Source: Mytilus californianus
Taxonomy: Eukaryota
Length of the DNA: 64,000 bases
Assembly (NCBI RefSeq): GCF_021869535.1
Contig: NW_026262712.1
Span: 31,124,001-31,188,000 of the forward strand
Reading direction: 5' to 3'
The position numbers are program-made. This document shows, piece by piece, positions 6,001-29,879 of this stretch (its first letter is position 1; every line of letters starts with the position of its first letter).

Positions 6001-9000
6001 AGAGGGTCCGCTGTCATAGAAAGACAATTCAAAGTTAACGTTGGAGGTGAGTCTTACATTAAACAATAGCAGTCTCTATAAGTATTTACCTATAAAACGT
6101 TTAAACCGCAGCATTGGTATGCACCTGTCTAAAGTGAGGAGCCTGTTGTTCAGTGGTTGCCGTTGGTTGGTGCTGTTCATAAATTTTTACAATTTGTACA
6201 AATTATACCGTTGGTTTCCCTCATTTAATTGTTTAACAATAGTTATTTTGGTGCACTGTCATAGCTTGCTGTTCGTTGTGAGTCAATGCTCTGTGTTGAA
6301 GGCCGTACTTTGACATATGATTGCTTATTGTTGACACAATGTGATTTGGATGGACAGTTGTCTTATTGGCACTCATACCACATCTTCTTATTCATAATTG
6401 AAAAGTCTTATCAAGTGATAGGCGACATGTTTTAGCGGAAAGGTAATTGACTGTTATCTAACTTTACACATCACCAAATTCTTAAACCGTTGATTCATCA
6501 ATCATAATAGAGAGACGGAATATATAAAAGGAATAATAGCATAATTTGAATAGAAAATGACAATGTCATGCAAAAGAAAGAATACCGACAACACAACAAA
6601 CTGCAGTCTACCAAACATAACGTATACAACCAAAGACTTTAATAACCACATCAAAACCACAAGGGTTGATATTGAGTGCTCCATATTGGGATAAGCATAT
6701 CATGCTCTATTTTCGGTTACCGTCGTAGTGCTTATGTAAGTACAAACCTTGTTATAAGTGTTATGCATACAACTGTGATTTATATATGTGTTGATCAAAA
6801 CGCATCACTCAGATGTGTTTCTTCATAAAACGATGGTTTAAATACGTTATCTGACTTGCCAATGCAGGTGTTTGAATAAAGCTATGTTTAATGTCTCCAT
6901 ATGAATATAAATGCAACTCAATGAAAACCATACTTCCCTGCTCCCGAAGCGCTTTTTTATTTATCTTCATCAAGACGTTCATAGTCAGAAAATTGAAAGA
7001 TAAGTATGTATAAAAAACTTAATATTTGATGAACTATATAACCACAATAGATCACAAATAAAAAGTCAAATGCATCTAAAGTCAACTTTGATGAAGATGT
7101 AATGTAAATAGAGTTCGTCAATTTGAAGCCTAGAGTATTACCATTATTCAAAATTCTACGGTCGAATCATTTTTCAGAATTCTACATTTAATTCCTTTAT
7201 CAAATATCTAAGGTAGTATATTCAATTACAATATTTCTATTTGATACGAAAATGTGAACCATGCATAAGAGAGATTAATGTTGAAAAAGGTAAAATCACA
7301 AAATACTAAACTCCGAGGAAAATTCAAAAAGGAAAGTCCCTCATCAAATGGCAAAATCAAAAGTTCAAACACTTAGTGTGAAGGCCTTTATTAACACAAA
7401 GACAGATCAGGAAAATGAAATCAAAATTACAAATTAATTCATGGGATCACATCTATCCTACTAAACTTGATATGTCAGATTAAACAAATTTACTTACGTC
7501 AGCTTCGCATCGAGGCTTGAATCTAGTAATTTTCGATCAAGGATTGTGTTTTGATAAGATCTTAATTTTGCAATAAAAGAGAGTTATAGATTTATATGTT
7601 GTTGATCTTTCAAATCATCTTACGACTAGAACAATATTCTGAAAATTTGATCCGCGGGATACATCATTTGAAGTTCCCCGTTCTGTTATTTATAAGCAGG
7701 CTATAACATTGAATTTTAATAGAATATTCTAGACGTGAAGTATAGCTTTACGTAACATCTGCATTGTGATTTTAATTTAATTTATAACAATATTCTTTTT
7801 TGGTTCGCCAGACCAATCTTTTGTCTGCAAACGACTTATATGTGGCATTAAATCCAAAACCGAGTCTGAAAATCATAAACCATCAAAATGTCGAGAAATT
7901 GCGAAAAAGACAGCATAGACGTATATCAATATCCTTACGCCATTCTTACGTGCAATTTATCAGTTCATGACAATTTAAAGTAATTATTCATATTGCAAAT
8001 TTGCTCATCTGTTTTTCTCTTCAAAAAGGTTTCAAGTATTTCCAAGAAATGTACGGTTTACGGAGTTGAAACACCAATACCTTCCAACGAAAAGCAATTT
8101 ATCTATTATCAAATGATGTCAAAGTACTTAACATTTGTCATGTCATTTTCAGAATCTATATTGACTCCGATTAGACTGGAATCATACACTCAGCGTGGAG
8201 AAGGATTGCTCCGAATTCGCTTAAAGAACAAATGGACTTATTTTCATTACAATACTTTCAGTTCAGTAAAGGCCTCTATTGTGTGTCGGTCTCTTGGATA
8301 TCCGTATGTATACAATTTGCTTAAATAACCAGCTACTTTAATACAATTTATATACATTATTTTGATTATTTAAGTATATTAATCTCCTTCTATGATTCAA
8401 TGAATAATGAAGAAAAAGAGTAGTATGTAGGTGTCATGAATATTCATTCTTACAACTTAGTTACGTTTGTGGTTCAAGTATCACAGTAAATCTTGGTAAA
8501 AACACATCCATGCTTTCTATCTAATAATTGCGAACGGCTTTTTTTTATGTCTACAAAAATGTGGCGCTTGAATTCTGACAGTTTTGCACAAAAAACCATC
8601 GGGAACAAAATTCCACCAGCAGTGTATTACCGAAAGGTCTGAATTTAACAATATGATTCTGAATAAGACTGAAACATTTCTCGACGTTCGTAAAGTGTAG
8701 GACTCTACCTCAATATTTCGATAATCTTAAAGTATCACAATTTTGTATTGATACATTATCCACAATCTAAACAGTATCGGAGTTTATAAGCAGTCTAGAG
8801 GGTGTATGAGTTTGTTTTGACAATTTAAAGTGTGTTTGAGTTCTTGTTGACACATCTTCAGCCATCAAGTGTGTATTCGTTTTCCTCCACACCTTAATGT
8901 TATACCTAGTTTATTAAAAGTTTTGAATACAAAAACTAAAAGAATATTATGCACGTACGATCCAACGCTGATCCATTTAGTCTTTTATCTTTCTTATTGT

Positions 9001-27000: not shown

Positions 27001-29879
27001 ACATTTTTACCTATTACGCATGTCTGTTTGTTTTGTTCACACATCGTTGTCAATATCAAAGAATTTGATGCGTAAGAGGTTTAGCTAGCTTTTAAGCCAG
27101 ATTTTATCAACCATTTTCTACATAAGAAAATGCCTGTACCCAAGTCAGGAATACTTCAGCTGTTATGCATTCGTTTGATGTGATTTAGATTTTGATTTTG
27201 TAATTTGATCAAGGACTTTCCGTTATGAATTTTCCTCGGAGTTCAGTATTTTTGTGATTTTACTTTTTAGGTCACATGATAAGCTGTAAAAAAATACCAC
27301 AGGTCATTAGGTATATATCAAGCAAAACACTTGGAACAAATAACAAATAACTGATTCGGTTTTGAACATATCTCTAGTTGATACACAAATGAAAGTTTTA
27401 TAAAAAAAGTTTATTAAAATTAATCGAGCTAAATTAGTTTTAGTCACGTTGTTTGGTATCACTGAAACCGGCTGAACGCCAATCGATTTATTATCTATTC
27501 TGCTTAGATGTCGAGTTACAAAGCAAAATATTGCAAATTTCGTAGTGATTTGCAAAATGTAATTATGAACTGAAGTTGCTTCAACTAAGGTATGTATGGA
27601 GGCCTCAGTGATTGTGCTTCCCTGATTTAGTGAAAAGATGTCATTAAATGACTTTGCTTTGAGATTCAAATTTAAATCATGATTAATTTCTTTTAGAACT
27701 CAAAATGACTGTCTCTTTAAAAAGTGATGGAAAAGTTAATGTCCATCGATTAGGAGCAACATGGCAAATATGTGCCTCTGCATGGAATTCTTATCAGGAA
27801 CCTCTATGGGATGATGTAGGTGCAACTGCTGTCTGTCGTATGCTCAATAATAGGTAAAATTATTAGACGTTTCAGAATTTAATGCATTCTGGGTAATATG
27901 CTCCTCTGCAAGGAATCTATATGAGATGCTGTAGGTGCAAATGCTGTCTGTCGTATGCTCAATATATATATATATTAGGTAAATTGATTAGACGTTTCAG
28001 AATCTAATGCAATCTGGGTAATATTTTCAAAGCGGACACCAAAAGGTTGTGATTGGTTTAAATTGGTAATAAACAATAGAATATCAACCAATGACGTTAC
28101 GATTCTTTCTTTTTTGGTTTACGAACATTGAGATTACCAATTGTCCTTTGGATTCTGAAATCGTGAATTAAAACAATTTCATTAATAAAAATTCTTTAAA
28201 AAATTAACATTTGAAAGTTGTGTAATGTTGAGATCATAAAATACAATGTTTAAGCGAATTTTACGCTGAAGTTGCAAGTGTACCAGCAAAAAATCCCTAT
28301 CTTATATTATAATAATACTATGAAGAAATGGTTTTCTGTTACACCACTCTCCTAAGTTGAGGACAGGATTGAAAGCTCGTAATGCAATTAACCATCGCCA
28401 CAAACGTAGTGTGCCAACCCACGCTAGGAGCCTTACACTCATTAGTTTTCGTTGGATTGCAATAGTTGATTTTGTTTTGCTTTTAGTATAAACCAGTTAC
28501 CTCATTCTCTAAATATCAAACAATTTTGATTCACGCAGCATTTCAATTTTATAAGAGGGAAGGAATGCCTTTTACCCTATGTCTTCAAACAGTCATTTTC
28601 GGCTACCATCATAATTAGACGATTCTTTTATCGTCAAAACGAAAAATATAAATGTTATCGTCATGTGCAAAAAAATTAGCATTAACGTCGTTTAGCAACA
28701 TGTGTTACCGTTATTCGTCATTACAACCTTGTCGTAGTACGGCTTACTCTTTATTAAGTTTCCGATCATAATGATTGTCGAAGTTTGTACACATTTTTGT
28801 CTGTTTGTCTATGTTGGAAAGTTATCGTATTGTCAGCTGTACTACATTCCTTATTTCATTATTATCAAAATACTACCAGGCCATAAATGGAAGATCTGAA
28901 TGTTCTTTAGTGTCTTTGACAATCCTTTACAATATCAAGTAATTAAGAAGTAAATCACTCCGCTTGGAACATAGATGAAACTTTATAAAACTATTCAAAT
29001 CCATTGATTGATTCTCTCAATTTGACACGTTTGCTTATGACAGCTTTTGCGACCTCAATTTGGCGTAAGATTAATGGGTGATGTAGAATAAAATTTCATC
29101 GCAGACTTGTTCCGCAGCAGGATATGTAAAATCAACTCGGGTTTTGTCGTGGCGTTATCAGATGATATTCAACGTATGAGTTTTGAAATTTCCTGGTATC
29201 TTTCGCATCTTTGATAATGATAAAAAGTAAAAGAACACAAATACCGAACTCCAATGAAATTCAAATCAGAAAGTCCTAGCTTATCAAATGACAAAATCAA
29301 AAGCTCAAACACATCAAACAAATTGAGAACAGTTGAAAAGCCAAATCAGTTATGAAGTGAAACAGCATTGAAATTCAAAATGAAAAAAAATAATTATTCT
29401 GACGTTTTACTAGAAGTAAATTTTAAGAAAAAAATCTTATGTTATTATTACCAGAAAGGAAAGAAAAAACGGAGTGTTATCATAACCTTATGAGCAAAGC
29501 ATCTATGAGTTTGACTGTCCCTCTGGTATCTTTCGTCCCTCTTTTAGACACATCATTGGTATTTTTATCAGATTGATTTCATTTATGTAAATAACGGGAT
29601 GAAATATTCTACTAGTTTCAGCAATGCAACTGCAACACACATACCATATGATTATAAAGGATTTCCAGCAACAGCAAATAACATACAACAACTTTACTGT
29701 CCGAGGGGTGCTTCACATCTTGGAGATTGTTTCTACGGGGGTTACATAAGTTATAAAGAATCAAAGTTAGCATCTCCATGGCAACCAGGTGCTTGCAGGG
29801 AGGAAGATTCATACTACACGTTAACACGACGAGGAGGTGTTCGATGCAACATATAAACATTCTACATACTTATTCAATG

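What the first reader, a model, noticed from the sequence alone, without database searches (positions are those of the whole stretch)
8153..29856. Disulfide covariation across the six SRCR domains: three 4-Cys domains and one relocated cysteine
Established: group A SRCRs have 6 Cys paired as C2-C7, C3-C8 and C5-C6 (8-Cys numbering). Seen: SRCR2, 3 and 5 lack both C2 (WGFVN, WGTVN, WLKVT) and C7, leaving 4 Cys. SRCR4 and 6 keep both (WGYVC/LSCEMH; WQIC/GACREE). SRCR1 lacks C2 but keeps C7 and gains a Cys in the GPIWL-equivalent strand (PYCIYG). Every domain therefore has an even Cys count (6,4,4,6,4,6). Inference: selection acts on a folded protein, and SRCR1 may have moved the C7 partner to a neighbouring strand.
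Basis: partly seen in the sequence, partly recalled or inferred. Interest (0 to 1): 0.65.

Follow-up and report, generated by a model that had tools for sequence, protein, structure and literature searches.

The report
Six-domain SRCR gene, paired cysteine losses
This is an intact twelve-exon invertebrate gene for a protein made of six scavenger-receptor (SRCR) domains, three of which have lost one disulfide bond as a matched pair of cysteines, a pattern already described in other SRCR proteins and so fairly ordinary.

Summary
All eight quoted motifs are on the + strand. They lie in 12 exons (8153-29856) with 11 GT-AG introns. A phase-2 intron splits each SRCR domain and phase-1 introns separate the domains. 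The frame stays open to a TAA stop. Cysteines per domain are 6,4,4,6,4,6. C3, C5, C6 and C8 are invariant. The C2 position reads H, N, N, C, T, C by Pfam coordinates.

Paired loss of C2 and C7 is not new. CD163 SRCR8 shows it in the solved-structure alignments, and Herzig 2010 states it in print.

Statistical support from this gene alone is thin: parity p about 0.05, C2/C7 association p = 0.2. Selection on a folded protein is better shown by the intact frame and splice sites.

The relocated SRCR1 disulfide (Cys at the conserved Trp position, paired with C7) stays untested. Joined exons were not folded, the half-domain model was poor (pLDDT 48), and no orthologues could be reached.

SRCR1b and SRCR5b are too divergent for Pfam to recognise. 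Verdict: a new member of a known kind, of low to moderate interest.

The parts
8153..8303 (+). Exon 1a: N-terminal half of SRCR1. C3 codon 8284-8286; His at the C2 position, 8245-8247.
   Evidence: AG acceptor and GTATGT donor. Pfam SRCR E = 0.00099, residues 70-110 against profile 5-45. An in-frame ATG at 8113 is an alternative start.
9321..9538 (+). Exon 1b: C-terminal half of SRCR1, with five Cys. Extra Cys 9415-9417, C5 9433-9435, C6 9463-9465, C7 9487-9489, C8 9517-9519.
   Evidence: Splice sites. No Pfam SRCR hit. Leave-one-out HMM rank 74, E = 27. Atlas feature search: 28 of 30 hits are SRCR clusters, best 0.94.
10266..10425 (+). Exon 2a: N-terminal half of SRCR2, Asn at C2. Tandem alternative acceptor at 10272.
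   Evidence: Pfam SRCR E = 7.5e-05.
11204..11406 (+). Exon 2b: C-terminal half of SRCR2, with C5, C6 and C8 only.
   Evidence: GTAAGT donor. Pfam SRCR E = 0.0039. Leave-one-out E = 0.00067.
11671..11821 (+). Exon 3a: N-terminal half of SRCR3, Asn at C2. The acceptor is uncertain.
   Evidence: Pfam SRCR E = 8.7e-09, 36 bits, above the 26.1-bit cut-off. Acceptor 11671 scores best of three candidates. 11680 would create a TGA with the 11406 donor.
13150..13340 (+). Exon 3b: C-terminal half of SRCR3, with C5, C6 and C8 only. Trp at the position of the SRCR1 extra Cys.
   Evidence: Pfam SRCR E = 0.14. Leave-one-out E = 3.6e-05.
19732..19882 (+). Exon 4a: N-terminal half of SRCR4. C2 codon 19824-19826. 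Alternative acceptor at 19738.
   Evidence: Pfam SRCR E = 0.00012, Cys on profile position 23. Splice sites.
20940..21169 (+). Exon 4b: C-terminal half of SRCR4. C7 codon 21115-21117, 11 residues before C8.
   Evidence: Pfam SRCR E = 0.016. Leave-one-out E = 0.00052. Cys positions.
22599..22740 (+). Exon 5a: N-terminal half of SRCR5, Thr at C2.
   Evidence: Pfam SRCR E = 9.3e-08, 32.7 bits. Acceptor tttttttaag, donor GTACAC.
26216..26403 (+). Exon 5b: C-terminal half of SRCR5, with C5, C6 and C8 only.
   Evidence: No Pfam hit. Leave-one-out rank 16, E = 6.1. Atlas support is weak: the SRCR set is 28 of 30 hits, but recognition is 2131, below 2300. The assignment rests on position, phase and Cys spacing.
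27697..27853 (+). Exon 6a: N-terminal half of SRCR6. Cys 27771-27773 read as C2, and an 8-residue insert before C3.
   Evidence: Pfam SRCR E = 0.01, residues 7-50 against profile 5-40. Competing alignments.
29622..29856 (+). Exon 6b: C-terminal half of SRCR6. C7 codon 29794-29796, 17 residues before C8. TAA stop 29854-29856.
   Evidence: No Pfam hit. Leave-one-out E = 0.068, rank 6. Acceptor tttcag, with an alternative at 29616. AATAAA at 30008.

Best explanation
The region is one intact gene of an AT-rich invertebrate genome. I do not take it for human. It encodes about 725 residues made of six tandem, very divergent group-A-type SRCR domains. Each domain is built from two exons, as if a two-exon unit had been duplicated.

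C3-C8 and C5-C6 are kept in every domain. These are the bonds that tie the helix to the last strand and close the loop after the PIWL-type strand.

The third bond, C2-C7, lies in the loop-rich part of the fold and can be dispensed with. It is kept in SRCR4 and SRCR6 and lost as a pair in SRCR2, SRCR3 and SRCR5.

The likely mechanism is inferred. A lone cysteine in a secreted domain is selected against, through retention in the ER and wrong disulfides. After one partner mutates, the other is therefore soon lost or re-paired.

In SRCR1, C2 is His and C7 is kept. The only non-canonical Cys of the whole protein replaces the conserved Trp six residues before C5. My best guess, at about 0.45, is that these two form a replacement intradomain bond. 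This is inference and is not shown.
For: Gene integrity:
- 12 exons, 11 of 11 GT-AG introns, alternating phases, and no stop until the TAA.
- The chance of about 697 stop-free codons at this base composition is about 5e-25.

SRCR identity:
- The a-half profile hits CD163 at 3.4e-70 and the b-half profile at 2.8e-20 in the PDB.
- 6 of 6 a-halves hit Pfam SRCR at E <= 0.01, and 3 of 6 b-halves at E <= 0.14.
- The leave-one-out HMM recovers 5 of 6 a-halves and 3 of 6 b-halves at E <= 0.0023.

Group-A type:
- There is no Cys at C1 or C4 in any of the six domains.
- Every domain has two exons, which is the published group A criterion (PMC3750411, Background passage).

Cys counts are 6,4,4,6,4,6.

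Precedent for paired loss:
- CD163 SRCR8 has Gly at C2 and no C7.
- C2-C7 and C5-C6 are described as stabilising the loop-rich flexible region (PMC11058800, passage).
- Unpaired cysteines prolong BiP binding in the ER (PMC3750411, Discussion passage).

SRCR1:
- C7 has the canonical 10-residue spacing to C8.
- The extra Cys is in the Trp column.
- C6 to C7 is 8 residues, against 10-11 in CD163.
- In the model, the extra Cys lies in strand 31-37 and C7 follows strand 49-55. These strands flank the C5-C6 loop, in the only part of the model with pLDDT about 70.
Against: - There is no transcript, orthologue or protein evidence.
- Parity is barely beyond chance (p about 0.048), and the C2/C7 association is not significant (p = 0.2).
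- The three 4-Cys domains may descend from fewer than three loss events.
- SRCR1b and SRCR5b are not recognisable by Pfam or by the leave-one-out HMM. Residue-level equivalence in SRCR1b therefore rests on Cys spacing and a Pro.
- The SRCR6a alignment is ambiguous.
- The half-domain model is poor (mean pLDDT 48, pTM 0.34). Its PDB matches are all SRCR but not significant: 3 matches, E 3.6-8.2.
- If the two strands pair in the register set by C5-C6, the extra Cys and C7 are offset by two residues. That is not ideal for a disulfide (my inference).
- Replacing a core Trp may mean that SRCR1 is folded differently.
- Unpaired Cys do exist in SRCR proteins: human AIM C191 and C300.
- The exon 3a acceptor is weak.
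- No convincing signal peptide was found, so secretion is inferred.
Confidence: 0.7

Rival explanations
1. The two odd cysteines of SRCR1 (the one at the Trp position, and C7) do not bond to each other. They are free, or they make inter-chain or inter-domain bonds, so the N-terminal domain would serve covalent multimerisation or ligand capture.
For: Human AIM carries an extra Cys between C4 and C5 in SRCR2 and SRCR3. C191 bonds covalently to IgM and C300 stays free (PMC11525585, passages). A 7-Cys 'group C' SRCR in sponges is proposed to make external bonds (PMC10855680, passages). The hairpin register I infer puts the two SRCR1 Cys two residues out of step (secondary structure, plus my inference).
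Against: Both Cys lie in the same half-domain, 24 residues apart. The extra Cys replaces a residue that is Trp in all nine aligned CD163 domains, and I expect that position to be buried (recall). Two exposed free thiols in one secreted domain would be unusual; the AIM paper calls an unpaired Cys exceptional in the superfamily.
Confidence: 0.3
2. The even counts say little about ongoing selection. One ancestral 4-Cys unit was copied by exon duplication, and the SRCR1 coincidence is chance.
For: Parity p about 0.048 and Fisher p = 0.2. By my arithmetic, the single non-canonical Cys would land in SRCR1 one time in six. All domains share the same two-exon structure and phases, which points to duplication.
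Against: The 4-Cys domains SRCR2 and SRCR3 are most similar to the 6-Cys SRCR4 (32% and 31%). SRCR5 is 15-21% identical to every other domain, so a single 4-Cys clade is not evident. The same paired loss arose independently in the CD163 family.
Confidence: 0.3
3. The model is wrong, or the gene is decaying. It could be two genes (SRCR1-3 and SRCR4-6), or a splice variant could add a linker Cys or a stop, so that per-protein parity fails.
For: Acceptor 11680 would give TGA with the 11406 donor. A weak downstream donor in the tail printed (my reading) would add a Cys to the SRCR2-3 linker. An in-frame Met followed by a hydrophobic run precedes exon 4a (ORF). A 6.4-kb intron containing a 236-aa reverse-strand ORF separates 3b from 4a. 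A decayed copy of the end of exon 6a lies in the next intron.
Against: The 11406 donor is a perfect GTAAGT, and the in-frame acceptor 11671 scores best of the three candidates. Every domain end has a donor at the homologous place and phase. All 12 exons are open. Per-domain counts do not depend on whether this is one gene or two.
Confidence: 0.08

Closest known systems
Group A SRCR domains (SCARA1, SCARA5, MARCO, Mac-2 binding protein, LOXL2)
   Same: No C1-C4 pair. Each domain is encoded by two exons. C3-C8 and C5-C6 are present in all six domains, and C2-C7 in SRCR4 and SRCR6. These proteins are among the PDB profile hits. The three matches to the half-domain model (none significant) are SCARA1 twice and CD163.
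   Different: Three domains have only four Cys. SRCR1 has a Cys in place of the conserved strand Trp. Pairwise identity among the six domains is only 15-32%. From my own reading, the two acidic residues that I recall following C2 in cation-binding SRCRs are absent in all six domains. The motif itself is recalled and was not tested.
CD163A SRCR8 and CD163c-alpha SRCR5 (group B domains lacking C2 and C7)
   Same: Concerted absence of the second and seventh cysteines within an otherwise ordinary SRCR array (PMC2906472, passages). It can be seen directly in the CD163 alignments.
   Different: Those domains keep C1-C4, so they have six Cys. They are single-exon vertebrate group B domains. Here the loss is on a group A background and leaves four Cys.
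Human AIM/CD5L SRCR2 and SRCR3 with an extra cysteine; sponge 'group C' 7-Cys SRCR
   Same: A non-canonical Cys is added to the SRCR scaffold (PMC11525585; PMC10855680).
   Different: In those cases the count becomes odd and the Cys is free or bonds to another molecule. In SRCR1 here the count stays even, because C2 is missing.
SRCR-like domains of hepsin and TMPRSS-type proteases (Pfam SRCR_2)
   Same: As I recall them, these also lack one canonical pair (C5-C6). That would be a second example of pairwise loss. Exon 5a gave a weak SRCR_2 match, E = 0.045.
   Different: They are mosaic proteases rather than SRCR-only arrays. The disulfide detail is recalled and was not checked here.

Membership tests
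SRCR superfamily (Pfam PF00530) | A domain of about 100-110 residues that matches the SRCR profile. | tested here: met
   Tested exon by exon. 6 of 6 a-halves hit at E 8.7e-09 to 0.01, and two of them exceed the 26.1-bit cut-off. 3 of 6 b-halves hit at E 0.0039-0.14, while 1b, 5b and 6b give no hit. Profiles of the halves hit CD163 at 3.4e-70 and 2.8e-20. The joined domains were not scored.
SRCR group A | No C1-C4 pair. | tested here: met
   No Cys at the positions of C1 (two residues before the G of the GRVEV-type strand) or C4 (after LG) in any of the six domains.
SRCR group A | [quoted passage not shown] | tested here: met
   6 of 6 domains are split by a phase-2 intron at the same place. 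The criterion is quoted from the PMC3750411 Background passage.
SRCR group A | Six cysteines forming C2-C7, C3-C8 and C5-C6. | tested here: not met
   Only SRCR4 and SRCR6 have the six canonical Cys, and SRCR6 does so with an ambiguous alignment. SRCR2, 3 and 5 have four. SRCR1 has six, but one is non-canonical. Pairing itself cannot be tested from sequence.
SRCR group B | Eight cysteines including C1-C4; single-exon domain. | tested here: not met
   There is no C1 or C4, and every domain has two exons.
Secreted SRCR-only protein | A signal peptide, with no transmembrane segment or other domain. | tested here: inconclusive
   No other Pfam domain and no further SRCR exon were found in the window. 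The stop comes two codons after C8. The signal peptide is unresolved: the in-frame Met at 8113 is only weakly hydrophobic, and several upstream candidate exons exist.

The most novel reading that the evidence does not exclude
SRCR1 carries a disulfide topology not described for groups A, B or C. The C2 partner of C7 would have been replaced by a cysteine at the conserved Trp of the PIWL-type strand, helped by a C6-C7 spacer two to three residues shorter than usual. That would be a natural example of a disulfide migrating to a neighbouring strand within the SRCR fold.
Probability: 0.4. Interest if true: 0.35.

Novelty: new member of a known kind. Interest (0 to 1): 0.2.

Why it matters
The result shows which SRCR disulfides are essential and which are optional. 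C3-C8 and C5-C6 are kept in six of six very divergent domains, while C2-C7 is lost in three. This agrees with what is already known from CD163. If the SRCR1 bond were confirmed, it would be a small, tidy case of disulfide relocation, of use to people who model or engineer SRCR domains. It opens no long-standing question.

Tried and rejected
- **Full-domain fold and S-S distance.** Not done. Each domain spans two exons, and the joined step was left out.
- **Fold of exon 1b alone, with the six b-halves as alignment.** Mean pLDDT 48, pTM 0.34. This is too poor for geometry, and the tool gives no coordinates.
- **Foldseek of that model against the PDB.** Three matches, all SRCR, at E 3.6-8.2, so none is significant.
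- **Single-sequence PDB searches.** Exon 1b gave only chance-level lactoperoxidase rows, E 0.7-1.9. Exon 6a gave E 0.34-0.37 with conflicting alignments.
- **More SRCR exons in the window.** An HMM scan of 2102 six-frame ORFs found none beyond the 12, with the best outsider at E 0.18.
- **Strand topology from papers.** The MARCO structure paper is not held, and a topology search returned nothing relevant. Only the pairing of strand 2 with the C-terminal strand was found.
- **Searches for a four-Cys SRCR or a Cys at the Trp position in print**. Nothing was found beyond the CD163-family case. SpBark's 'four cysteines' refer to its lectin domain. The LOXL2 disulfide mapping paper was not informative. 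These searches are not exhaustive, and supplements were closed.
- **dN/dS between the paralogous domains.** Not attempted, because 15-32% identity is saturated.
- **Not used.** Complex prediction, the second structure job, and genome contigs, which holds bacteria and archaea only.
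Full report
**What is there.** The window is 64 kb, has about 31% G+C and contains no N. I do not take it for human. The evidence is the base composition, a single-exon Toll-like receptor next door, and only distant similarity to vertebrate SRCR proteins.

They lie in 12 exons between 8153 and 29856:

| Domain | a exon | b exon |
|---|---|---|
| SRCR1 | 8153-8303 | 9321-9538 |
| SRCR2 | 10266-10425 | 11204-11406 |
| SRCR3 | 11671-11821 | 13150-13340 |
| SRCR4 | 19732-19882 | 20940-21169 |
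| SRCR5 | 22599-22740 | 26216-26403 |
| SRCR6 | 27697-27853 | 29622-29856 |

All 11 introns are GT-AG. Each domain is cut by a phase-2 intron just after the LG[FY] that ends the helix, and domains are separated by phase-1 introns. The frame runs without a stop to a TAA at 29854-29856. At this base composition, about 697 stop-free codons would occur by chance with a probability near 5e-25. An AATAAA lies at 30008.

**Is it SRCR?** The spliced model was searched exon by exon.

- Pfam PF00530 matches 6 of 6 N-terminal halves, at E 8.7e-09 to 0.01.
- It matches 3 of 6 C-terminal halves, at E 0.0039 to 0.14. Exons 1b, 5b and 6b give no hit.
- Profiles built from the six a-halves and the six b-halves hit CD163 at 3.4e-70 and 2.8e-20, along with other solved SRCR proteins.
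- In leave-one-out tests against all 2102 ORFs of the window, 5 of 6 a-halves and 3 of 6 b-halves come straight after their relatives at E <= 0.0023.
- In the same tests 6a (E 0.1) and 6b (E 0.068) are marginal. 1b (rank 74, E 27) and 5b (rank 16, E 6.1) are not recovered.
- A language-model feature search places 1b among SRCR clusters: 28 of 30 hits, best 0.94, recognition 2352.
- The same search gives only weak support for 5b, with recognition 2131, below the tool's 2300 mark.

The assignment of 1b and 5b therefore rests largely on four things: their place and phase in the gene, the YGG/HGG start, the C5-x9-C6 spacing, and the shared C8 motif. For 1b the last of these is ITCRLEPV, against IKCRTEPV and LKCNTEPF in 3b and 4b. 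There are no further SRCR exons in the window.

**The cysteines.** Counts are 6,4,4,6,4,6, and none of the 11 split codons is Cys. C3, C5, C6 and C8 are invariant, although the domains share only 15-32% identity.

- *C2.* Five a-halves match the Pfam profile without net gaps. This puts profile position 23 (C2) on His, Asn, Asn, Cys and Thr in SRCR1-5.
- *SRCR6a.* It has eight residues too many (44 against 36 profile positions). MAFFT and two other weak CD6 alignments put Gln at C2 instead.
- *C7.* It is 10, 11 and 17 residues before C8 in SRCR1, 4 and 6. The canonical value is 10.
- *The SRCR1 extra Cys.* It lies six residues before C5. That column holds Trp in SRCR3 and SRCR5, and in all nine CD163 domains aligned.

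**More than chance?** Only weakly, on this gene alone. Six extra Cys placed at random give all-even counts with p about 0.048. The C2/C7 association over six domains gives p = 0.2. The one non-canonical Cys would fall in SRCR1 one time in six. The case for a working, folded protein rests much more on the intact frame, the conserved splice architecture and the four invariant Cys.

**What is known.**
- Group A is defined by six Cys and at least two exons per domain (PMC3750411, passage). This gene meets the exon criterion and lacks C1-C4, but only two of its six domains have the canonical six Cys.
- Paired loss of C2 and C7 is already in print for CD163A SRCR8 and CD163c-alpha SRCR5. The same paper also lists predicted domains with unpaired losses (PMC2906472, passages).
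- I saw the CD163 SRCR8 case directly.
- C2-C7 is said to stabilise the loop-rich region rather than the core closure (PMC11058800, passage). This fits its being dispensable.
- In five searches I found no four-Cys group-A-type SRCR, and no Cys at the Trp position. Those searches are not exhaustive, and supplements were closed. Those of PMC10855680 may bear on this.

**SRCR1.** The relocation idea could not be tested. The half-domain model of exon 1b is poor (mean pLDDT 48), and its PDB matches, though all SRCR, are not significant.

Its best part (pLDDT about 70) places the extra Cys in a strand at residues 31-37. C7 comes right after a strand at 49-55. These two strands flank the C5-C6 loop. 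The C6-C7 spacer is 8 residues, against 10-11 in CD163, which would bring C7 closer to the extra Cys.

If the two strands pair in the register set by C5-C6, the two Cys are two residues out of step. That makes them near but not opposite. This is my inference, not a result.

I put the intradomain bond at about 0.4-0.45. The main rival is free or inter-chain use of these Cys, as in human AIM.

**Left open.**
- Expression.
- The 5' end and signal peptide.
- The weak exon 3a acceptor.
- Whether SRCR1-3 and SRCR4-6 are one gene or two.

**Verdict.** The general interpretation is reasonable but already known for this fold. The specific SRCR1 hypothesis is open. The gene is a new member of a known kind.

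Noticed in passing
36693-39317, minus strand: A single open frame of 875 residues with LRRNT, four LRR_8 stretches (E = 1.7e-26) and a TIR domain (E = 8e-22). This is an intronless Toll-like receptor gene about 7 kb downstream of the SRCR gene, on the other strand.
   Followed up: partly
27796-28024: The last 58 nt or so of exon 6a, its donor and the start of the intron are repeated once in tandem (period 115, 87% column identity). The second copy has TGA where the exon has the TGG of Trp, and a TA-repeat insertion before its GT. It is a decayed pseudo-exon inside intron 6a/6b.
   Followed up: yes
29840-30272: A 33-nt minisatellite of about 13 units begins inside the last codons of exon 6b. 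The C8 codon at 29845-29847 and the stop lie in unit 1. The array runs through the 3' flank, past the AATAAA at 30008. Its first unit still reads GGVRC in frame, so I take the coding end as original.
   Followed up: partly
11638-11680: The acceptor of exon 3a is uncertain. Acceptor 11680 would create a TGA with the 11406 donor. The in-frame 11671 (gaag) scores best of the three candidates on a small matrix trained on this gene's other acceptors.
   Followed up: yes
10266/10272, 19732/19738, 29616/29622: Three exons have two acceptor AGs six bases apart. Exons 2a and 4a share the same TTCCAG. Alternative use would add or drop two linker residues and change the split codon, without touching any Cys.
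   Followed up: partly
18223-18930, minus strand: A 236-residue open frame lies in the 6.4-kb intron between exons 3b and 4a. It has no Pfam match at E <= 0.1. To my eye (recall only) it resembles the C-terminal part of a non-LTR retrotransposon ORF.
   Followed up: partly
19680-19731: An in-frame Met followed by a 14-residue hydrophobic run lies directly upstream of the exon 4a acceptor (ORF). It may simply be the translated pyrimidine tract. It may instead mark a separate start for an SRCR4-6 gene.
   Followed up: no
54515-55248: A 114-nt tandem array of 6.4 copies at 88% match carries an open frame at 54542-54898. That frame has only a sub-threshold, very short TRAF6 zinc-finger-like match.
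   Followed up: no
23589-23834: A 41-nt tandem array of six copies lies in intron 5a/5b.
   Followed up: no
44797-45138, minus strand: A 114-residue open frame with no Pfam match. Its lysine- and threonine-rich text reminds me (recall only) of a repeat-derived ORF common in bivalve genomes. This and the Atlas row labelled Mollusca are the only hints to the organism.
   Followed up: no
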